A stretch of 64,000 nt of DNA from contig JALNZK010000002.1 in NCBI GenBank assembly GCA_023229365.1, positions 62,343 to 126,342 of the forward strand, in the 5' to 3' direction. Position 1 is the first letter of the stretch, and every line of letters begins with the position of its first letter. Shown here piece after piece: positions 74-46,106 of this stretch. The translations under genes and the position numbers were made by a program. The notes beneath the pieces are model-generated. The model worked only from the letters and a program-made list of their open reading frames with translations. It did not search any database and was not told the DNA's origin. The DNA comes from Pseudomonadota bacterium. GTDB taxonomy: Bacteria > Myxococcota_A > Polyangia > JAAYKL01.

Positions 74-1480
74 CTAATCCTCCGAGGGGCTGTTATCGCC
101 ACACATTTTCACAATCTTCGGATTAAAGGTTGCAACAATTTCAACCAAATCCGATTGAGCCGCCATAACTGTATCAATATCTTTATAGACCCCAGGGCTT
201 TCGTCTGCCGTGGCGTCCAAGACAATGACACCTTGCCGATCCAAGTTACCTTGGACAGCTTTCCAAACATATTTTTCTTTGGCTTTTTTACGAGACATCA
301 ATCGCCCCGCCCCGTGAGAAGCAGAACAAAGACTCGCCGGATTACCTTTGCCCACCACAATATAAGCAGGCGTGCCCATCGAACCAGGAATTACACCCAG
401 CATACGATGGCTTGCAGGGGTTGCTCCCTTACGATGCACCACTACCTCGCCTTGATTCGGATCATGCGTTTCAAGGAAAGCGAAATTGTGATGATTCTCT
501 ACATTAAATAAAACTTTGGCTCCCAAATTCTGAGCCATAGCCTTGTGAATCAATTGATGATTGGCTTGAGCGAATCGACCCATCAATTGCATTGCGAGCC
601 AATATTCCTGCCCATCATTGGATGCCAAATCCAACCATGCCAGATTTTTCAAATCGTCATATTTCTTCGGCAACTTGGATTGAGCAACCCCGTGATACAT
701 TTGGCATACTGCTGCCCCCGGTCCCCGAGAACCTGAATGAGTCATAATTGCCACATACTCACCAGGGAGCAGCCCAGCAATATCTGCAAGCGATGGCGAA
801 TTTTGTATTTGCAGAATGCCGACATCAATAAAATGATTTCCGCTACCCGAAGTTCCTAGCTGCTTCCAGGCTTTGTCTTTTTGCTGTTTGGTGACTCTGG
901 TAATTCCCCAATCCTCATCCATAACCGGATGATTTTTGGGCTGATCGAAGACCGCATTTCCGCCGTCGCCAATACCAAAACGAGTGCTCTTGGCAATCGC
1001 TTCCCTGTACAAATTAAATTTCTTTTCCAAGGAATTGACTGGCATATCTAGGATTGACAAGCTCATACGGCAAGCAATATCGACGCCGACCGCATTCGGA
1101 CATACGGCTCCTTGCAAAGCCAAAACCCCACCAATGGGCAGTCCGTAACCAACATGACAATCTGGCATAACGGCGGCAGTAACCGCCATCGGCAATGAAC
1201 AAGCTTGCTGCATTTGTCCGTCACAACCCTCTTCCAACGACCCCCATACCTTGTAGGGGATAGCAGCAGATCGAACAAACTGTTGCTCTTGAATTAGAAG
1301 ATTGGCTAAATCTCCGAAGTGTTTATCTCCGACATATTCCTGAGGGTTGGTGAAGAAAGTCTTCATGATAGCCTTGATATTGCGATCATCGCCGCCCTCT
1401 CGGGCTACACGAATAGCATCGACCGCAAGACGGGCACAATCCTCAGGACATCCAAGTTTAACAAGCTGTTTGCCGTTCAT
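74..1480 (-). CDS. rtcB: RNA-splicing ligase RtcB (3-prime-phosphate/5-prime-OH RNA ligase)
   Basis: 468 aa with the RtcB hallmarks SGSGNHF (metal-binding His) and CSASHGAGR near the C-terminus. A GGAGG Shine-Dalgarno lies upstream and a consensus promoter sits at about 1510-1538. Confidence 0.8.
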   Translation of the reverse strand: MNGKQLVKLGCPEDCARLAVDAIRVAREGGDDRNIKAIMKTFFTNPQEYVGDKHFGDLANLLIQEQQFVRSAAIPYKVWGSLEEGCDGQMQQACSLPMAVTAAVMPDCHVGYGLPIGGVLALQGAVCPNAVGVDIACRMSLSILDMPVNSLEKKFNLYREAIAKSTRFGIGDGGNAVFDQPKNHPVMDEDWGITRVTKQQKDKAWKQLGTSGSGNHFIDVGILQIQNSPSLADIAGLLPGEYVAIMTHSGSRGPGAAVCQMYHGVAQSKLPKKYDDLKNLAWLDLASNDGQEYWLAMQLMGRFAQANHQLIHKAMAQNLGAKVLFNVENHHNFAFLETHDPNQGEVVVHRKGATPASHRMLGVIPGSMGTPAYIVVGKGNPASLCSASHGAGRLMSRKKAKEKYVWKAVQGNLDRQGVIVLDATADESPGVYKDIDTVMAAQSDLVEIVATFNPKIVKMCGDNSPSED

Positions 1481-10146: not shown

Positions 10147-10223
10147 GTATTTGAATGCTGTGGGTCGTGTGGGCGTGGCATTGCTAGGCAACGGCGTTTC
10201 CTCGGAACACCACAGCATTCAAG

Positions 10224-10302
10224 AGTCGGCAGGCGGAATCGAACCACTTAACATCTGATTTGCAATCAGACCCCCAGCCTTCGGAGATTAGTTTCTGCCG
10301 AC
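10224..10302 (-). tRNA. tRNA-Cys (GCA), atypical long D-region
   Basis: Perfect acceptor GTCGGCA/TGCCGAC. Anticodon stem TCTGA/TCAGA with loop TTGCAAA. T-loop TTCGATT. At 79 nt it carries about 6 extra nucleotides in the D-arm region. Confidence 0.45.
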
Positions 10303-10308
10303 AATTCA

Positions 10309-10386
10309 GTGGAGCTAGAGGGAGTCGCACCCTCAGTTACCAACGTACCCATTGTAGGTTTTACGTTAGACTCGCTTTGTAGCCCC
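10309..10386 (-). tRNA. tRNA-like element, anticodon undetermined
   Basis: Acceptor GGGGCTA/TAGCTCC (one G-U pair) and T-arm GAGGG-TGCGACT-CCCTC are clear. No canonical 5-bp/7-nt anticodon arm can be folded, so this may carry an insertion or intron or be a decoy. Confidence 0.35.
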
Positions 10387-10614
10387 TTATCTTTTTGGAC
10401 CTTGCCAATCATCCCTGTATTTATATGTAAATTCAGCATCAATTGGCGTGTTCAATCCTTCCTCTCGCAACATTTCCTCAAGAGCATCAGCCACTTCATC
10501 ATAAACATCACAACGCTCTTGTTCTACGGCCCAAGTCCATGTGCTGCCGGTAGGCGTATGACTTGCTTTTTCCCTTAATTGAGCAATATATGCTCTAATC
10601 TTTTCCGACTTCAT
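10387..10614 (-). CDS. hypothetical protein
   Basis: 75 aa ORF. Confidence 0.35.
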   Translation of the reverse strand: MKSEKIRAYIAQLREKASHTPTGSTWTWAVEQERCDVYDEVADALEEMLREEGLNTPIDAEFTYKYRDDWQGPKR

Positions 10615-10813
10615 CTTTCTTTCCCTTTTTCTTCTTTTCTTTTGGTGCTGATTTCAAACTTTCAATCAAAACTTTTACCTCAGCATTTTCCGCAAGTTTA
10701 GTTATCAACTCATTCAATCCATGAATCTCCAAACCTTGCCTTGTCGTTTGTTTCACAAGGTCTTGTATTACACCCTGTGGATCAGTTTGACAGCGTTCTT
10801 CAAAGGTTATCAT
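10595..10813 (-). CDS. hypothetical protein (Lys-rich C-terminus)
   Basis: 72 aa ORF. Confidence 0.35.
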   Translation of the reverse strand: MITFEERCQTDPQGVIQDLVKQTTRQGLEIHGLNELITKLAENAEVKVLIESLKSAPKEKKKKGKKDEVGKD

Positions 10814-10814
10814 T

Positions 10815-10997
10815 TTACCCTCTCACAACATCATGGATTTTTGACGGAGCTTGAACAACATCTATGATTTCAAAACCAGGAGGCATATATTTTTGTGCCT
10901 CATCCCAAGCTTCGCTCACACAAGCGGCGGCTACACTGATCTTTGGTGTCTTAACCTTTTCCTTGATGTTTTTCTTGAACTTTACAAGATATTGCAT
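10815..10997 (-). CDS. hypothetical protein
   Basis: 60 aa ORF. Confidence 0.3.
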   Translation of the reverse strand: MQYLVKFKKNIKEKVKTPKISVAAACVSEAWDEAQKYMPPGFEIIDVVQAPSKIHDVVRG

Positions 10998-11166
10998 GTT
11001 TCATCCTTTGCATCAAAATTTACACAATCACATTCCCAGCAGCAGCCTTCTTCGTCATGTGCTTCTGAAAGATGCCCACAGGAACATATCATTTTCTTAT
11101 ATCGACTGCAAGAGGGGTCGTGACCACCTCTCAAATCCCTTTCGCATTCGCTACATTCGATGCTCA
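10982..11166 (-). CDS. Cys-rich small protein
   Basis: The listed ORF's N-terminal extension runs through two tRNA genes. I shortened it to the internal Met MSIECSECERD..., which has an AAGGAG Shine-Dalgarno upstream. The protein is 61 aa with multiple CxxC pairs. Confidence 0.35.
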
Positions 11167-11182
11167 TATCATTCTCCTTTAG

Positions 11183-11253
11183 CTGCCCCGTAAGGAATCG
11201 AACCTTATCTTTCTCGTTCAGAGCGAGACGTGCGGCCACTACACCACGGGGCA
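11183..11253 (-). tRNA. tRNA-Gln (CTG)
   Basis: Acceptor TGCCCCG/CGGGGCA is perfect. Anticodon stem TCTCG/CGAGA with loop CTCTGAA. T-arm TAAGG-TTCGATT-CCTTA. Confidence 0.6.
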
Positions 11254-11259
11254 AAATAG

Positions 11260-11331
11260 CTGGGCTGGAAGGATTCGAACCTTCACGAACAGATTCAAAG
11301 TCTGTCAGGCTAACCGTTACCTCACAGCCCA
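11260..11331 (-). tRNA. tRNA-Gln (TTG)
   Basis: Acceptor TGGGCTG/CAGCCCA is perfect. Anticodon stem ACAGA/TCTGT with loop CTTTGAA. T-arm GAAGG-TTCGAAT-CCTTC. Confidence 0.6.
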
Positions 11332-11429
11332 AAAATTTGGTAAATATTTCGGTGTTCCACAGCTTAAACTGCCGAGGTTAGAGGCTGTCCATCCTCACCG
11401 AGGTTATCGGCCACCGTATCGCCAACTTG

Positions 11430-11510
11430 GGACATTTAGCAGGGGCAGAAGGAATTGAACCTCCGAGTGCTTTCGCATGCAGCTTCAAAGACTGCCGGGG
11501 TCTGCCAACA
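11430..11510 (-). tRNA. tRNA-like element, anticodon undetermined (possible degenerate or insert-containing tRNA)
   Basis: A T-arm (GGAGG-TTCAATT-CCTTC) and a G-rich acceptor are present. The putative anticodon region contains a GCATGC palindrome inside a 13-nt loop, so no canonical anticodon arm forms. Confidence 0.3.
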
Positions 11511-11529
11511 ACCCCAATACCCCCATGTT

Positions 11530-11612
11530 TGCAACCAACTGGAATCGAACCAATATTTCTCCGGTGTCGGGAACGTTTTGCCTTAGGCCGCTTTTTGCCA
11601 ACCCTTGTTCTA
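11530..11612 (-). tRNA. tRNA-like element or tRNA pseudogene
   Basis: A T-arm (ATTGG-TTCGATT-CCAGT) and a 3-prime acceptor strand TGGTTGC are present. No matching 5-prime acceptor strand or anticodon arm was found. Confidence 0.25.
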
Positions 11613-11654
11613 GAATTGAATTAGTTATTACGACCCCTTAAACTATAGTTGCAA

Positions 11655-11728
11655 GTGAGACCGTTGGGATTCGCACCCAAAACCTACGGCTTAAAAGGCC
11701 GTTGCTCTACTAATTGAGCTACGATCCC
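11655..11728 (-). tRNA. tRNA-Lys (TTT)
   Basis: Acceptor GGGATCG/CGGTCTC with G-U pairs. Anticodon stem ACGGC/GCCGT with loop CTTTTAA. T-arm TTGGG-TGCGAAT-CCCAA. Confidence 0.55.
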
Positions 11729-11922: not shown

Positions 11923-11993
11923 TGGGTCCACGGGGAATCGAACCCCGATAAACTGGGTAAAAGCCAGTTATTCTGCCATTGAATTACGAACCC
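11923..11993 (-). tRNA. tRNA-Lys (TTT), second copy
   Basis: Acceptor GGGTTCG/TGGACCC, D-stem ATTC/GAAT, anticodon stem ACTGG/CCAGT with loop CTTTTAC, T-arm CGGGG-TTCGATT-CCCCG. Confidence 0.55.
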
Positions 11994-12643
11994 TACAACC
12001 ACTCTTCATTCACAAAACCACAATATTCTTGAATTGCTCCATAAATGTGTTGCACCATATGAGTGTCGCACACCCTTAAAGAACAAACTCCAAACTTATG
12101 CTTATTCTTTTTATACCCGCCACCTTCTCCCTCTTTGAAAACTCCCTTTCGCAAACTGCTATGGTCTAATTTCAAAATTCCAAGCCAATAATCTTCAATC
12201 TCTTTTTTTGATAGACCATTGTTTAAATAACAATTGATGCATATTGTATACTTTTGTTTTGGGAAGTAGGTATCCACAAATTTTTTAAATGCACAAATGA
12301 CATTCGCATCCGTATTCGCCAAGCTTGCCACATTTCTACTTTTTGTTCCTTCTGCCCAATACAGCGTACAACCCAACAAATGCTGCAACTCTCCCTTTTT
12401 CGCCTGCTCCCTCCCCTCTTGCTGATATTGTTTCCTAATTGCCAAATATTTTTTTCTTGTTCCTTCTTTGCCAGCAAACCCTATTCTTCCATCTAAATTC
12501 TTGCGTTTCGTTTGCGACATTTTTATGGGGCGTGTCCATACACTTGCTGTTGATTTAGACACACCCAACAAATTCACTATTTCACCAAGCGACTTACCTT
12601 CTTTCCTCAATTGTTTGGCTTTTTCTTTTAACTCTTTTTTCAT
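11993..12643 (-). CDS. HTH-domain protein, putative LAGLIDADG-like homing endonuclease
   Basis: An N-terminal helix-turn-helix (SLGEIVNLLGVSKSTASVW) is followed by an LLGCTLYWAEGTKS segment that resembles the LAGLIDADG/GEG dodecapeptide. The gene abuts the 5-prime end of tRNA-Lys inside the tRNA array. Confidence 0.4.
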   Translation of the reverse strand: MKKELKEKAKQLRKEGKSLGEIVNLLGVSKSTASVWTRPIKMSQTKRKNLDGRIGFAGKEGTRKKYLAIRKQYQQEGREQAKKGELQHLLGCTLYWAEGTKSRNVASLANTDANVICAFKKFVDTYFPKQKYTICINCYLNNGLSKKEIEDYWLGILKLDHSSLRKGVFKEGEGGGYKKNKHKFGVCSLRVCDTHMVQHIYGAIQEYCGFVNEEWL

Positions 12644-12698
12644 AATAGAACCTTGCCTTTCTACCTATATATAATAGCAAAGTTCTATTTTTTTCAAG

Positions 12699-12772
12699 TC
12701 GTGGCTTTGAGAGTCGAACTCAACACGGAATCCTTATCAGGGATTCCAGGGCAAACCGGCCCGTCAGCCACG
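12699..12772 (-). tRNA. tRNA-Ile (GAT)
   Basis: Acceptor CGTGGCT/AGCCACG is perfect. Anticodon stem (GG)AATCC/GGATT(CC) with loop CTGATAA. T-arm TTGAG-TTCGACT-CTCAA. Confidence 0.6.
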
Positions 12773-13703: not shown

Positions 13704-13996
13704 GTCATGTTCATATATATGAGTATAGCTTGAAATTTTTTTCTGTCAATCCCTATTTTTCGGATTTTTTTCGGCGTAAACCAAAAATGGCTCCGAGTCG
13801 CCTTGCCACTATTCCCGCTCCAATGGAGACATTAGCTTATCGGGGTTTGCTGTCGCCGTTTCTCGGAGGTTGCCAGCTTGCTCTTCCATTAAATTTGTCA
13901 ATCAACAACCCTTCTGATTCCGAAGAATCCGCACATGGTTAAGAGGCGTGCCGTGCGTAGCAAAACCCTCATATTGTTGATTGACAAATTGACAAA

Positions 13997-27536: not shown

Positions 27537-28583
27537 TCATAGCTCCATAAATTTCAACTTCTTTTGTGCTTCTTTTTTGTGCTTCAAATTACCCCATTGA
27601 ACCATACGATTCAATATCCACTTTTTTAATTCAAATAACTCATCCGACAATAAATAAACACCTTTATCTTTTTCTAGTCCCAAATACCTCAAAAATTCCT
27701 CCAAAGTAGGTACTTGGGAAAAATCAGTCGGCATAATTTTGTTTTTTGAAAAATCCACAAACCACAAATATAAATATGTCCAATTAATAATTTCCGAACT
27801 GGTTAATGTGCCCTCTGGCATCCGTAATTCTACTGTTTTACGACTCGTATCATATCCCCCATGCCCTGCTTCACCCCTTATGGCAGCCGCATAGTTCACC
27901 AAATTTATTGCCAATTTTTTTTGAGGATTCTCATGTACATTGAGATTTGAAGGCTTAATATAACGCCAATAATCTTCTGGAGTTTCAAATACTCCTTCAT
28001 ACTTAAAATGTTTTCCCAATAATTTGCAATATTTATTTGTGCGGCGATGTGGTGGAAGCATTTGGCATATCCACGGCTCTATTTTAATCCATCGAGCAAC
28101 AAGAACGGCAACTTGCTCTGGGGCAAAATCTTTAACTTCTGCGTGAATATGAAGCCCACAATTATTGTTGACTTCTACACCAGCTTTTCGCAAAGCATCT
28201 GCCACATTACCTATGTGCAAAAGATCACGCTGGCCCTGGGCGATAAACGAAGCAACTTCCCATCCACCATTGTCTTTTTTCTTGCCGAGCGGACCACAGG
28301 TGCTGTCATACTTGACATGCCAATAATCATTTTGGCTGGTTTGTGCCCATCCTGGGCAATCGTCACCAAAAATACCATCTGTTACCACAATGTGCCGAGA
28401 AGATTTTTTGGCAATAATATCTCTAATGTATTGTTTGCTAATACATGGATGACGATAGCCAAACTGATCGGTCCACACTGATTCTTTGGAAGAACCACGG
28501 ATAACTTGATTTTTTACGCTGCTGACTTCTAATTCAATACCAAAACGACGCTTGCTATTAAATTTTTTGTATTCTATGAGCAT
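27537..28583 (-). CDS. hypothetical protein, possible amidoligase-family enzyme
   Basis: The N-terminus RRFGIELEV resembles the G.E.E start of the putative amidoligase family. This is a weak call. Confidence 0.3.
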   Translation of the reverse strand: MLIEYKKFNSKRRFGIELEVSSVKNQVIRGSSKESVWTDQFGYRHPCISKQYIRDIIAKKSSRHIVVTDGIFGDDCPGWAQTSQNDYWHVKYDSTCGPLGKKKDNGGWEVASFIAQGQRDLLHIGNVADALRKAGVEVNNNCGLHIHAEVKDFAPEQVAVLVARWIKIEPWICQMLPPHRRTNKYCKLLGKHFKYEGVFETPEDYWRYIKPSNLNVHENPQKKLAINLVNYAAAIRGEAGHGGYDTSRKTVELRMPEGTLTSSEIINWTYLYLWFVDFSKNKIMPTDFSQVPTLEEFLRYLGLEKDKGVYLLSDELFELKKWILNRMVQWGNLKHKKEAQKKLKFMEL

Positions 28584-40303: not shown

Positions 40304-40825
40304 TTATTTCTTCATGGGTTCAATAATACAACTCACCCCTTTTCCCTCTAATCGGGGAGTGCTCAGGGGTTTCCCACAAGAAACCAAAGAATCAATCATT
40401 TTCTGCATAAGGCTAAAACCCAGGTCTTTGTGAGCATTTTCTGCACCTTTGAATCTTACCATAAGTTGAACCCTATTTCCAGCCTCAAGGAATCTTTGTG
40501 CAGAATTTATCTTCACATCAAGATCATGAGTGGCTATAGAAGGCCGCAAACGTATTTCTTTAAGTTGCTGAGCCTTTGTTTGCGACTTACTCTTCTTTTC
40601 TTTAATGCTTTGCTCATAGCGAAATTTGCCATAATCCATTATTTTGCAAACTGGTGGTCGAGCATTTGGAGCCACTTCTACAAGGTCCAAACCTTCTCTC
40701 ACCGCAATTTCTAATGCCTGAGAAGTAGGCATTGTGCCCAATTTTTCTTCGCCTAAGATAACCATTACTGGCGAGAATCTGATTTGTCGATTAACACGAC
40801 AGAACTTTTGCTGATCTTTTTGCAT
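40304..40825 (-). CDS. infC: translation initiation factor IF-3
   Basis: Readily alignable with bacterial IF3: VMVILGEEKLG / LDLVEVAPNARPPVCKIMDYGKFRYE / KEIRLRPSIATHDLDVK / MVRFKGAENAH. Confidence 0.85.
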   Translation of the reverse strand: MQKDQQKFCRVNRQIRFSPVMVILGEEKLGTMPTSQALEIAVREGLDLVEVAPNARPPVCKIMDYGKFRYEQSIKEKKSKSQTKAQQLKEIRLRPSIATHDLDVKINSAQRFLEAGNRVQLMVRFKGAENAHKDLGFSLMQKMIDSLVSCGKPLSTPRLEGKGVSCIIEPMKK

Positions 40826-45283: not shown

Positions 45284-45601
45284 TCAAGGGGATTTGTCGT
45301 ACCCTTGCTCTATATTCTTGAATATCGGATAGCCAGGGCAATTATCCCCCAAAGCTACTCCCTGAACATGGGGGTCAATACCTGTTATTTTGCAGTTTTC
45401 TAAAAATTCGTTTACCGTCTCATCCATGCGTTTTTTTGCGACTTTTTTGTGTTTTATGCAATACCACTGCCATGCCAATGGGTCTTCTTGTAAATATCGG
45501 CATTGTCGATGATCTCCCACAAACATTAAACAAATATCTTGCAACTGTTTTTGACTCAACATAATGTTTTCCTTACATCCAAATGTGTTGTTCTTCTCCA
45601 A
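45284..45601 (-). CDS. hypothetical protein
   Basis: 105 aa ORF. Confidence 0.35.
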   Translation of the reverse strand: MEKNNTFGCKENIMLSQKQLQDICLMFVGDHRQCRYLQEDPLAWQWYCIKHKKVAKKRMDETVNEFLENCKITGIDPHVQGVALGDNCPGYPIFKNIEQGYDKSP

Positions 45602-46106
45602 TGTCAGATATCAGCACTCCCTCACCGTGTGAAATTTCATGCTGATGGGCGACACACAAAATACCATCCTCTTCAGCAGACAATACCATATCTACCGCAT
45701 CTATTCTGATTTTTCCGTCCACATACAGTTGTTGGCCTTCCACTCGGATTTTTTTAAACCGATCTACCTTAAACCAACGAGACGATCCATCAGGATTTGT
45801 GAGAGATAAGCACCCCTCAAAAGATGATACCTTTTCATCTTCTATGGGCGTATATTTGCAGTTTAAATAGTAGCCAAATGGCATCTCTGCCGATTTTCTG
45901 ACAACGTACATATTCCAAGGCAACCCCACCTGTACCGCATGAAGACCAATTCCTTTGCGTAATTTGCACAAAATTTCTAATGCAGCAAATATCTTATACA
46001 ATTCCACGGGGGATTTATCAGCAGAGCCAGCTTTGGGAATTTGGTCAACTGGAATTATTTTTGGGATAGTTTGGTCGTTATCGCATCGCTCTTTTGATAC
46101 AGCCAT
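45573..46106 (-). CDS. def: peptide deformylase
   Basis: GIGLHAVQVG (motif 1), EGCLS (motif 2) and QHEISHGEG (HExxH, motif 3). Confidence 0.8.
   Translation of the reverse strand: MAVSKERCDNDQTIPKIIPVDQIPKAGSADKSPVELYKIFAALEILCKLRKGIGLHAVQVGLPWNMYVVRKSAEMPFGYYLNCKYTPIEDEKVSSFEGCLSLTNPDGSSRWFKVDRFKKIRVEGQQLYVDGKIRIDAVDMVLSAEEDGILCVAHQHEISHGEGVLISDIGEEQHIWM

What the first reader, a model, noticed from the sequence alone, without database searches (positions are those of the whole stretch)
10309..11612. Non-canonical tRNA-like elements: acceptor and T-arm intact, anticodon arm missing or expanded
Three elements have convincing acceptor and T-arm pairing but cannot form a 5-bp/7-nt anticodon arm. 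They are at 10309-10386, 11430-11510 (with a GCATGC palindrome in a 13-nt loop) and 11530-11612. Region 11337-11425 also has tRNA-like inverted repeats but no T-loop. They may be intron-containing tRNAs, frameshift or suppressor tRNAs with enlarged loops, decoys for anticodon nucleases, or pseudogenes. RtcB is encoded nearby, so intron-containing or cleaved tRNAs could be repaired.
Basis: seen in the sequence. Interest (0 to 1): 0.5.

Follow-up and report, generated by a model that had tools for sequence, protein, structure and literature searches.

The report
Irregular tRNAs in a phage array
This stretch of a large phage-like tRNA gene cluster holds one working glutamine tRNA with an extra arm, one conserved alanine-tRNA look-alike that cannot read codons, and two probable tRNA remnants; none is the intron-bearing or suppressor tRNA first suspected.

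Summary
All elements lie on the minus strand inside a 15-gene tRNA array (8.3-13.7 kb) of a huge-phage-like contig that also encodes RtcB, IF3 and peptide deformylase.

- **A (10309-10386):** confirmed. It has a 7-bp acceptor and a T arm but no D arm and no standard anticodon arm. Its outer shell matches tRNA-Ala (G3·U70, A73). It is 98.7% conserved in a relative whose neighbouring DNA is 80-90% identical.
- **B (really 11439-11524):** It is a tRNA-Gln(UUG) with a normal 5-bp/7-nt anticodon arm plus a 3-bp/GAAA extra arm. It belongs to a covarying family of 22 distinct sequences, from 24 IMG/VR viral contigs plus the window and a relative. In most loci a canonical tRNA-Gln lies nearby.
- **C (really 11530-11652):** a tRNA-like gene with a ~55-nt insert in the D loop and a defective anticodon loop.
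- **D (11337-11430):** no T loop, and its fold is no better than chance.
- **C and D** are both absent from the one relative that covers their position, so they are probably decayed or spacer sequence.

I found no intron, no CUA/UCA/UUA anticodon and no tmRNA. The functions of A and of B's extra arm are inferred, not shown.

The parts
10309..10386 (-). Element A: tRNA-Ala-derived tRNA-like RNA. It has a 7-bp acceptor with G3·U70 and A73, a 7-nt linker, one long bulged hairpin (3+7+3 bp, loop UACAAUG) and a T arm with loop UGCGACU. No CCA is encoded.
   Evidence: Rfam tRNA aligns only acceptor and T arm, 17.8 bits. ARAGORN makes no call. Fold z = -3.0. It is 77/78 identical in relative L010, and the one change turns U·G into C-G. 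The 3' 24 nt are 96% identical to the annotated tRNA-Ala of phage C48C1.
11439..11524 (-). Element B: tRNA-Gln(UUG) with a standard cloverleaf plus a 14-nt variable region that forms the hairpin UGC-GAAA-GCA.
   Evidence: ARAGORN. Rfam 30.2 bits. Fold. Two compensatory double changes against L053. Family of 22 distinct sequences whose extra-arm stem is paired in 22/22, 22/22 and 21/22 with 3-4 pair types per position. Scores 63.8 bits with family model R1.
11530..11652 (-). Element C: 123-nt tRNA-like gene. It has a perfect 7-bp acceptor, U8-A9, D stem GUUU/AAAC around a ~62-nt loop, a 4-bp anticodon stem with loop CGACACC, and T arm AUUGG-UUCGAUU-CCAGU. The ~55-nt insert is flanked by the direct repeat UAAGG.
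   Evidence: Rfam tRNA 33.5 bits with a 58-nt insertion in the D loop. Acceptor/T-arm scan. Absent from relative L053. No convincing intron model. The insert has no significant similarity to the window's tRNAs.
11337..11430 (-). Element D: structured spacer between B and the canonical tRNA-Gln(UUG). It has three hairpins inside an imperfect long stem. The third hairpin, GCAGU-UUAA-GCUGU, repeats B's anticodon stem with a 4-nt loop. There is no T loop.
   Evidence: Fold z = -1.4 to -1.5. Local similarity to B reached by 43/500 shuffles. Absent from relative L053. No Rfam match.
11259..11331 (-). Canonical tRNA-Gln(UUG), the standard twin of B.
   Evidence: ARAGORN. Rfam 64.3 bits. Only 63% identical to B after the extra arm is removed.
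11182..11253 (-). Canonical tRNA-Gln(CUG).
   Evidence: ARAGORN. Rfam 57.6 bits.
11655..11728 (-). tRNA-Lys(UUU), lying 3 nt upstream of C. It marks C's 5' boundary.
   Evidence: ARAGORN. Rfam 69.4 bits.
10223..10302 (-). Irregular tRNA-Cys(GCA), 6 nt downstream of A. It has an 8-nt connector before the D arm, a 6-bp anticodon stem, a possible 8/4 acceptor/T split, and U73.
   Evidence: ARAGORN. Best Rfam match is tRNA-Sec at 27.3 bits, below threshold. Fold z = -3.4. It is 79/80 identical in L010, with G·U changed to A-U.
74..1480 (-). RtcB RNA ligase gene (context only).
   Evidence: Pfam PF01139, E = 9.5e-89.
13722..13749 (-). Promoter-like site (TTGACA-16-TATACT) just upstream of the first tRNA of the array. 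It is a possible start of a polycistronic transcript.
   Evidence: Consensus scan, 11 of 12 matches. The number of sites in the region is no higher than in shuffles, so this is weak evidence.

Best explanation
The finding covers four unlike members of one co-oriented tRNA array. The array is probably transcribed as a polycistron and belongs to a huge-phage-like element.

(1) B is a working tRNA-Gln(UUG). It decodes CAA/CAG like its canonical neighbour and carries an added 3-bp/GAAA-capped variable arm. The design recurs in many large viral tRNA arrays, usually beside a canonical tRNA-Gln. I infer that the arm changes how tRNA-binding proteices other than the ribosome see the molecule. The most likely effect is protection from, or self-marking against, a tRNA-targeting nuclease. 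This step is not shown.

(2) A is a conserved derivative of tRNA-Ala. It keeps the half of the molecule read by RNase P, the CCA-adding enzyme, AlaRS and EF-Tu: the acceptor/T-arm helix with G3·U70 and A73. It has lost the D arm and the decoding anticodon loop. I infer that it is excised, CCA-tailed and alanylated but does not decode. It would then act off the ribosome as an alanyl donor or as a mimic for enzymes that act on the acceptor end. This step is also not shown.

(3) C and D are specific to this lineage. C is a tRNA-like gene disrupted by a ~55-nt insert, with a non-functional anticodon loop. D is a spacer holding a copy of B's anticodon stem with the loop shortened to UUAA. Both are most likely decayed products of duplication or insertion within the array. 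At most, C serves as an RNase P/Z processing site.
For: Context:
- 15 tRNAs lie on one strand with many duplicate isoacceptors.
- The window also encodes RtcB, IF3, peptide deformylase, DnaJ and PhoH, as reported for huge phages (PMC7162821).
- A promoter-like site lies upstream of the array, and no terminator-like site was called on the array's strand between it and A.

B:
- ARAGORN and Rfam both call it.
- Relative L053 differs by two compensatory double changes, G4-C69 to A-U and G27-C43 to A-U, and keeps the arm.
- 24 IMG/VR loci carry the same design.
- In 22 distinct sequences the three extra-arm pairs are formed in 22/22, 22/22 and 21/22, with 3-4 pair types each. The search pattern did not require pairing.
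- 19 of 26 loci have a canonical tRNA-Gln(UUG) within about 450 nt.
- Long and canonical twins are only 52-69% identical, so they are not recent duplicates.
- His, Thr, Arg, Asn, Pro, Glu and Val tRNAs in such arrays also carry extra arms.

A:
- Its acceptor and T-arm 3' strand are identical to those of an annotated phage tRNA-Ala.
- It is 98.7% conserved against 82.9% (tRNA-Trp), 89.5% (hairpin), and 80-90% (ORFs) in L010.
- The single change improves a predicted pair.

C and D:
- In L053, B directly abuts tRNA-Lys and tRNA-Gln, with neither C nor D present.
- Both have defective loops.
- D's fold is at chance level.
Against: - There are no expression, processing or charging data for any element.
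- A is known from only two near-identical sequences. There is no real covariation, and recent exchange between the two phages could mimic purifying selection.
- No homologue of A was found in IMG/VR or GTDB genomes.
- The absence of C and D rests on one 998-bp relative.
- Other viral arrays hold conserved irregular tRNA-like genes with big D-region inserts or shortened anticodon loops, so C and D could be functional oddities rather than junk.
- The protective role of B's arm is analogy only (PMC10264068, PMC11464382, PMC11555353).
- 'Phage' is inferred: no structural gene lies in the window.
Confidence: 0.6

Rival explanations
1. A is simply a decaying tRNA-Ala pseudogene. Its near-identity in L010 would then reflect recent recombination between the two phages, not selection.
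For: Only two sequences are known and no covariation is possible. The adjacent irregular tRNA-Cys is equally conserved (98.8%), which fits a shared recently exchanged block. tRNA arrays do contain pseudogenes: 3 of 26 genes in the Anabaena array (PMC8421152).
Against: In L010 a 78-aa ORF is inserted between A and tRNA-Cys. The DNA immediately upstream of A is only about 80% identical, so a single recent block is unlikely. The one substitution converts U·G to C-G in the predicted stem. The fold is stable, with z = -3.0. By my arithmetic, at 10% background divergence the chance of at most 1 change in 78 nt is about 0.003.
Confidence: 0.15
2. A is a genuine decoding tRNA of D-arm-less architecture, as in some mitochondrial tRNAs. 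Its long hairpin would replace the D and anticodon stems, and the 7-nt loop UACAAUG would present an anticodon.
For: Total length is 77 nt. The 13-bp bulged hairpin is about as long as the D and anticodon stems stacked together. A 7-nt terminal loop is possible. D-arm-less-looking tRNA-like genes with canonical anticodon loops occur in other viral arrays.
Against: The loop has A33 and U37 instead of U33 and a purine at 37. ARAGORN's mitochondrial mode does not call it. Alanine identity combined with a CAA or ACA anticodon would mistranslate Leu or Cys codons.
Confidence: 0.1
3. The elements are intron-containing, frameshift or nonsense-suppressor tRNAs that are cut and rejoined with the help of the phage RtcB.
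For: RtcB is encoded in the window. C has a large insert. With relaxed settings ARAGORN proposes a 28-nt intron in C.
Against: Default ARAGORN with -i and -m calls nothing at A, C or D. The relaxed model has mismatched D and anticodon stems. No CUA, UCA or UUA anticodon is present. No splicing endonuclease or group I intron signal was found. ORFs read normally in code 11. B's loop is a standard 7 nt.
Confidence: 0.05
4. B's extra arm switches its identity. It would then be charged by SerRS, as allo-tRNAs are thought to be, and insert Ser at Gln codons as a phage-driven recoding or toxic tRNA.
For: B has a long variable arm, G73 and G2-C71, all of which SerRS uses (established identity rules; PMC5389517).
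Against: The arm stem is only 3-4 bp. The acceptor/T split is the standard 7/5, not 8/4 or 9/3. Eleven of the 22 distinct family members keep U1-A72, and the window's B has G1·U72; this weak first pair is typical of bacterial tRNA-Gln. The discriminator varies between G, A and U. The same arm appears on tRNAs for eight different amino acids, each beside a canonical twin, which fits a shared accessory role better than eight identity switches.
Confidence: 0.08
5. C and D are functional non-coding RNAs, for example expanded-D-arm tRNA mimics or protein sponges, rather than debris.
For: They fill the gaps between neighbouring tRNAs exactly. A related contig (L009) has two 122-128-nt tRNA-like genes sharing a conserved ~55-nt insert. 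A UUAA-capped 'anticodon' stem also occurs in L056. tRNA-like genes lie between the long and canonical tRNA-Gln in L067 and L071, the same position as D.
Against: Both are absent from L053. C's insert is not homologous to the L009 module. D's fold is at chance level. No homologues were found in 50,697 phage records.
Confidence: 0.15

Closest known systems
Long tRNA gene arrays of phages and bacteria (huge-phage tRNA clusters; 'L-arrays' with linked RtcB and homing endonucleases; PMC7162821, PMC8421152)
   Same: There are many co-oriented tRNA genes with duplicate isoacceptors and small ORFs between them. An HTH/endonuclease-like ORF sits inside the array and RtcB is nearby. Some members are likely pseudogenes.
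   Different: An unusually high share of structurally irregular members lies in 4 kb: A, B, C, D, the Cys-like tRNA and the Ile tRNA.
Class II tRNAs (Leu/Ser/Tyr) and allo-tRNAs / selC* tRNA-Cys (PMC5389517)
   Same: B has a base-paired extra arm in the variable region. The neighbouring Cys-like tRNA may have an 8/4 acceptor/T split and a 6-bp anticodon stem.
   Different: B keeps the 7/5 split, has a short 3-bp GAAA-capped arm and a Gln anticodon, and sits beside a canonical twin. The allo-tRNA features (8/4 or 9/3 split, tRNA-Sec-like D arm) are absent.
tRNA-Ala acceptor minihelix and the tRNA-like domain of tmRNA
   Same: A has GGGGCUA/UAGCUCC with G3·U70 and A73. Its T loop UGCGACU is the one seen in permuted tmRNAs. 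Its layout is acceptor, single-stranded linker, long helix, T arm.
   Different: A has no tag reading frame or pseudoknots and is only 77 nt. Neither ARAGORN nor Rfam finds a tmRNA here. No SmpB gene is in the window.
Phage tRNAs that escape host tRNA-targeting nucleases (PMC10264068, PMC11464382, PMC11555353)
   Same: The phage encodes extra copies of Lys, Gln, His, Trp, Cys and Met tRNAs together with an RNA repair ligase. B is a structurally altered twin of a canonical tRNA.
   Different: The known cases change the anticodon loop or simply replace the cleaved species. Here the change is an added arm, and any resistance is untested.
D-arm-lacking mitochondrial tRNAs
   Same: A has no D arm and has a lengthened central helix.
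   Different: A's terminal loop lacks U33 and a purine at 37. It occurs in a bacterial-virus setting, and ARAGORN's mitochondrial mode does not call it.
Polycistrons of irregular tRNAs from soil and peat metatranscriptomes (PMC5389517, section on toxin-antitoxin-associated allo-tRNAs)
   Same: Both are clusters of tRNA-like genes with extra loops or non-standard arms, some chargeable but not used in translation.
   Different: Those were attributed to Acidobacteria and linked to toxin-antitoxin loci. Sequence relatedness to A-D was not tested.

Membership tests
Canonical tRNA (Rfam RF00005 / ARAGORN cloverleaf) | 7-bp acceptor stem plus 5-bp T stem with a T-loop consensus | tested here: met
   Met by A, B and C. 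Not met by D, which has no T loop.
Canonical tRNA (Rfam RF00005 / ARAGORN cloverleaf) | 5-bp anticodon stem with a 7-nt loop carrying U33 and a purine at 37 | tested here: not met
   Not met by A (long hairpin, loop UACAAUG), C (4 bp, CGACACC) or D (UUAA tetraloop). B does meet it, with GCAGU-CUUUGAA-GCUGC.
Canonical tRNA (Rfam RF00005 / ARAGORN cloverleaf) | Score at or above the Rfam gathering threshold of 29 bits | tested here: inconclusive
   B 30.2 and C 33.5 pass. A 17.8 fails. D has no match. C passes on acceptor, D stem and T arm alone.
Viral extra-arm tRNA-Gln(UUG) family (defined here, model R1) | Gln anticodon loop CUUUGAA, a 3-4-bp variable-arm stem capped by GAAA, and a standard 7/5 acceptor/T helix | tested here: met
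   B scores 63.8 bits and L053 scores 59.3 bits with R1. B and L053 were in the alignment R1 was built from, so these scores match partly by construction. The independent support is the arm-stem covariation in 22 distinct sequences.
Intron-containing tRNA (bacterial group I intron or bulge-helix-bulge intron) | A recognisable intron whose removal restores a standard cloverleaf | tested here: not met
   ARAGORN -i at default thresholds calls nothing at A, C or D. The relaxed run gives a mismatched model. No Rfam intron match. The 55-58-nt insert is far below group I size (established knowledge).
Nonsense-suppressor tRNA | Anticodon CUA, UCA or UUA | tested here: not met
   No such anticodon appears in any parse of A-D.
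tmRNA | tRNA-Ala-like acceptor with G3·U70 | tested here: met
   A has GGGGCUA/UAGCUCC with A73. Its T loop is identical to that of the permuted tmRNAs in L080-L119.
tmRNA | Tag-peptide reading frame and pseudoknots between the two halves of the tRNA-like domain | tested here: not met
   Only 38 nt of hairpin lie between the halves. ARAGORN -m and the Rfam tmRNA models give no match at A.
Allo-tRNA / selC* tRNA (PMC5389517) | 8/4 or 9/3 acceptor/T configuration with a long variable arm | tested here: not met
   B is 7/5. A and C are 7/5 without a paired variable arm.
AlaRS substrate (alanine identity) | G3·U70 wobble pair with A73 in an accessible acceptor helix | tested here: met
   The sequence shows it directly. 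The acceptor is identical to an annotated phage tRNA-Ala. Actual charging cannot be tested with these tools.
Y RNA-like YrlA (tRNA mimic linked to Ro and RtcB) | Rfam YrlA match, and a Ro (TROVE) protein gene nearby | tested here: not met
   No YrlA match in the Rfam scans. No TROVE domain among the 50 window proteins scanned.
Phage/L-array tRNA cluster | Many co-oriented tRNA genes with duplicate isoacceptors on a mobile or viral element, with RNA repair genes linked | tested here: met
   15 tRNAs in 5.4 kb on one strand. RtcB is present. PHROG matches and translation genes are present. Viral identity is inferred; no structural gene lies in the window.

The most novel reading that the evidence does not exclude
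Large phages may systematically pair canonical tRNAs with structurally 'armoured' twins. These are class-I tRNAs for Gln, Pro, Thr, Arg, His, Asn, Glu and Val carrying an added, often GAAA-capped, arm. Alongside them the phages would keep non-decoding aminoacyl-acceptor mimics such as the tRNA-Ala-derived element A. Together these would form a tRNA-level counter-defence or self/non-self marking system that I could not find described in the searchable literature.
Probability: 0.3. Interest if true: 0.8.

Novelty: new variant of a known kind. Interest (0 to 1): 0.5.

Why it matters
Phage tRNAs are now understood partly as countermeasures to host nucleases that cut tRNAs. If the extra arm on B and its many counterparts protects or marks viral tRNAs, it would be a second route of escape beside anticodon-loop changes, a structural one. 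It would also explain why arrays keep two versions of the same isoacceptor.

A would be a natural example of a tRNA reduced to its aminoacylation half, which is of interest for non-ribosomal uses of charged tRNA.

There is also a practical point. Standard tRNA finders miss or mislabel such genes, so viral tRNA inventories are incomplete.

Tried and rejected
- **Close relatives through LigA in IMG/VR:** none found.
- **Exact-protein look-ups:** these gave only 100% identical copies of the window.
- **LigA homologues at 51-66% identity (L005-L009):** their contigs end before the array or are not syntenic with it.
- **42 JGI loci found through the 61-aa CxxC ORF:** no sequence homologue of A-D.
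- **DNA patterns for A in IMG/VR and GTDB genomes:** the hits were tmRNAs or random coding matches.
- **BLAST of C+B+D against 50,697 phage records:** no match.
- **L106 357-427 as a second A-like element:** not supported by Rfam or folding.
- **Origin of D from B and of C's insert from tRNA-Lys:** not significant in shuffle tests (43/500 and 133/500).
- **A target for A's loop elsewhere in the window:** chance level.
- **tmRNA, Y RNA, intron and suppressor readings:** rejected; see the membership tests.
- **PHROG and Pfam scans of neighbouring ORFs:** no tRNA-dependent transferase, SmpB, aminoacyl-tRNA synthetase or CCA-adding enzyme in the window.
Full report
**Setting**

The window is part of a 340,072-bp contig that NCBI lists as a Proteobacteria MAG. 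Identical copies of the region occur in one ENA and two Logan assemblies.

ARAGORN finds 15 tRNA genes, all on the minus strand between 8269 and 13703. Isoacceptors are duplicated: Lys x4, Gln x3, His x2, Trp x2 and Met x2. Small ORFs lie between them.

The window also encodes:
- RtcB (74-1480), NAD-dependent ligase and two sigma factors
- a DnaE-type polymerase
- IF3, peptide deformylase, DnaJ, PhoH, dUTPase, dCMP deaminase and an amidoligase
- some PHROG-matching proteins

[quoted passage not shown] No virion gene lies in the window, so 'phage' is an inference. A promoter-like site (TTGACA-16-TATACT) sits just upstream of the first tRNA, and no terminator-like site was called on the array's strand before element A. 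That fits a polycistronic transcript, although the evidence is weak.

**Element A (10309-10386, minus strand)**

- The sequence is GGGGCUA-CAAAGCG-[AGU CUAACGU AAA ACC UACAAUG GGU ACGUUGG UA ACU]-GAGGG UGCGACU CCCUC-UAGCUCC-A.
- It has a perfect 7-bp acceptor and a 5-bp T arm. Everything between them is one bulged hairpin (-27.9 kcal/mol, z = -3.0).
- ARAGORN does not call it in any mode, including intron, tmRNA and mitochondrial modes.
- Rfam's tRNA model aligns only the acceptor and T arm, at 17.8 bits.

The acceptor carries G3·U70 and A73, the alanine identity set (established knowledge). The acceptor and the 3' half of the T arm are identical to the annotated tRNA-Ala of cyanophage C48C1. 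The T loop UGCGACU and the AGCUCCA end also match the acceptor piece of permuted tmRNAs found in IMG/VR. A has no room for a tag frame, and no tmRNA model matches it.

One relative was found, L010, a 1157-bp ENA contig. Identity between L010 and the window is:

| Segment | Identity |
|---|---|
| A | 77/78 (98.7%) |
| Upstream ORF (75 aa, 5' part) | 80% |
| 72-aa ORF | 90% |
| Downstream hairpin | 89.5% |
| tRNA-Trp | 82.9% |

The single change in A turns a predicted U·G pair into C-G. A 78-aa ORF separates A from tRNA-Cys in L010, so the two are not one rigid block. This points to purifying selection, but two sequences cannot give covariation. No further homologue turned up in IMG/VR, GTDB genomes or 50,697 phage records.

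**Element B (11439-11524)**

The gene is GGGGGUA UU GGGG UUGUUGGCAGA CCCC G GCAGU CUUUGAA GCUGC A UGC GAAA GCA CUC GGAGG UUCAAUU CCUUC UGCCCCU G. This is a full cloverleaf with a standard anticodon arm (anticodon UUG) plus a 3-bp GAAA-capped extra arm. The 'GCATGC palindrome' is the junction of the anticodon stem and that arm.

Evidence that B is a real, conserved tRNA:
- A relative (L053, Logan) has the same gene with two compensatory double changes in the acceptor and anticodon stems and an unchanged arm.
- A pattern requiring only CUUUGAA, GAAA and the T loop, with no requirement for stem pairing, retrieved 24 IMG/VR loci on contigs up to 476 kb. ARAGORN calls an 81-86-nt tRNA-Gln(UUG) in each.
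- In 22 distinct sequences the three arm pairs next to GAAA are formed in 22/22, 22/22 and 21/22 cases, with 4, 4 and 3 pair types. The other stems covary too.
- In 19 of 26 loci a canonical 72-76-nt tRNA-Gln(UUG) lies within about 450 nt.
- The two forms are only 52-69% identical once the arm is removed, so they are separate lineages kept side by side.

The same arrays hold over-long His, Thr, Arg, Asn, Pro, Glu and Val tRNAs with paired extra arms, several of them GAAA-capped.

I found no description of this design in the searchable literature. The nearest is the allo-tRNA / irregular-tRNA work (PMC5389517), whose defining 8/4 or 9/3 helix B lacks.

**Element C (11530-11652)**

The matching 5' strand, GCAACUA, lies 3 nt after tRNA-Lys, which gives a 123-nt unit.

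- Rfam aligns U8-A9, a D stem GUUU/AAAC and a 58-nt insertion in the D loop, for 33.5 bits.
- The anticodon arm is 4 bp with loop CGACACC. G33 and C37 are both non-standard.
- A 5-nt direct repeat, UAAGG, flanks a ~55-nt insert. Removing the insert leaves a 68-nt tRNA-like core, still with the defective loop. This is read directly from the sequence, and a 5-nt repeat could be chance.
- Relaxed ARAGORN runs give either a 69-nt 'Cys(ACA)' among obvious false positives or a poorly paired 'Leu(CAG) + 28-nt intron'.

**Element D (11337-11430)**

D has three hairpins inside an imperfect stem and no T loop. Its fold energy is within the shuffle range. Its third hairpin, GCAGU-UUAA-GCUGU, repeats B's anticodon stem with the loop cut to four bases, but the similarity is not significant (43/500 shuffles).

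**C and D together**

In L053, B directly abuts tRNA-Lys on one side and the canonical tRNA-Gln on the other, so C and D are both missing there. I read them as lineage-specific products of insertion or duplication that are decaying.

The caveat is that other viral arrays contain conserved oddities of similar kinds:
- two 122-128-nt tRNA-like genes with a shared ~55-nt insert in L009
- a UUAA-capped stem in L056
- a tRNA-like gene between the long and canonical tRNA-Gln in L067 and L071

**How it most likely works**

What is shown: the anatomy, the family-level covariation for B, and the conservation of A.

What is inferred:
- The array is transcribed as a unit and cut by RNase P and RNase Z.
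- B is charged as tRNA-Gln and decodes CAA/CAG. Its arm lies away from the decoding and acceptor ends. It most plausibly alters recognition by a tRNA-targeting nuclease or another tRNA-binding factor. The analogy is to phage tRNAs that escape host nucleases (PMC10264068, PMC11464382, PMC11555353).
- A is excised, CCA-tailed and alanylated, because AlaRS needs only the acceptor helix, but it cannot decode. It would then act as an off-ribosome alanyl carrier or as a mimic for acceptor-end-directed enzymes. tRNA-dependent viral enzymes are known (PMC13219725), but none was found in this window.
- RtcB fits a general tRNA-repair role, not splicing of these genes.

**Verdict**

The most interesting outcomes are the widespread extra-arm twin tRNAs, of which B is one member, and the conserved alanine-type mimic A.

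Noticed in passing
window 10223-10302 (-): The 'tRNA-Cys(GCA)' next to A is itself irregular. It has an 8-nt connector before the D arm, a 6-bp anticodon stem, a possible 8-bp acceptor with 4-bp T stem, and U73. Its best Rfam match is tRNA-Sec at 27.3 bits, below threshold. It is 79/80 conserved in L010, with G·U changed to A-U, yet ARAGORN did not call it in L010.
   Followed up: partly
window 10147-10222 (-): A 76-nt hairpin with a 13-bp closing stem fills the gap between tRNA-Cys and tRNA-Trp. Its z-score is -5.6. It is conserved in L010 with a matching 2-bp deletion on both strands of the stem. No Rfam match.
   Followed up: partly
window 12698-12772 (-): tRNA-Ile(GAU) is called by ARAGORN but not matched by Rfam at E <= 10. 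It folds with a 7-8-bp anticodon stem and a 2-nt variable region.
   Followed up: no
window 11655-11728 (-): tRNA-Lys(UUU) has T loop UGCGAAU (G55 instead of U55), and its D loop lacks the usual GG. A shares the G55 variant.
   Followed up: no
window 10982-11167 (-); loci L011-L055: A 61-aa Cys-rich ORF has an N-terminal 23 residues (MSIECSECERDLRGGHDPSCSRY) that are nearly invariant in 42 JGI loci, with unrelated C-termini. Some copies lie in tRNA arrays (L012, L014, L040, L053) and others next to RlaP and metallophosphatase genes (L054, L055).
   Followed up: partly
window 11993-12643 (-): A 216-aa ORF with an N-terminal HTH (weak transposase-like PHROG hit) sits inside the tRNA array. Homing endonucleases sit in this position in the T4 and Anabaena arrays.
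   Followed up: no
L014 925-1004; L040 5840-5920; L068 11096-11174 and 11181-11259: These are roughly 80-nt tRNA-like genes missed by ARAGORN. They have no D stem, a canonical anticodon arm (UCU or GAU) placed early, and a conserved variable region (approximately CCGUAAUCGGAACUGCAAAU) before the T arm. They may be a separate irregular tRNA class in viral arrays.
   Followed up: partly
L009 17700-17821 and 18268-18395: Two 122-128-nt tRNA-like genes in a contig related by LigA (51% identity) share a conserved ~55-nt module inserted after the 5' acceptor strand. One has a canonical ACG anticodon loop. The module is not homologous to C's insert.
   Followed up: partly
L067 11151-11238; L071 6440-6527; L056 5957-6046 and 3778-3862; L072 7225-7295: ARAGORN labels these 'tRNA-???'. 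Their anticodon loops are 4 or 6 nt (UUAA, GUUGGA, GUUGAG, AUUCAA). The L067 and L071 pair is conserved, encodes CCA, and lies between the long and canonical tRNA-Gln, the position D occupies here.
   Followed up: partly
L057 584-668; L058 737-821: A tRNA-Gln(CUG) also exists in an extra-arm form, with arm CUC-GUAA-GGG, next to the extra-arm UUG form.
   Followed up: no
window 40304-40825 (-), 45573-46106 (-), 27537-28583 (-): The window encodes IF3, peptide deformylase and an amidoligase, together with several radical-SAM enzymes and glycosyltransferases. This points to translation takeover and possibly nucleic-acid or surface modification functions.
   Followed up: no
L106 357-427: A 71-nt stretch in an IMG/VR contig has an Ala-type acceptor end, T loop UGCGACU and an encoded CCA, but no standard core. 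Neither ARAGORN nor Rfam recognises it, and its fold is not significant.
   Followed up: partly
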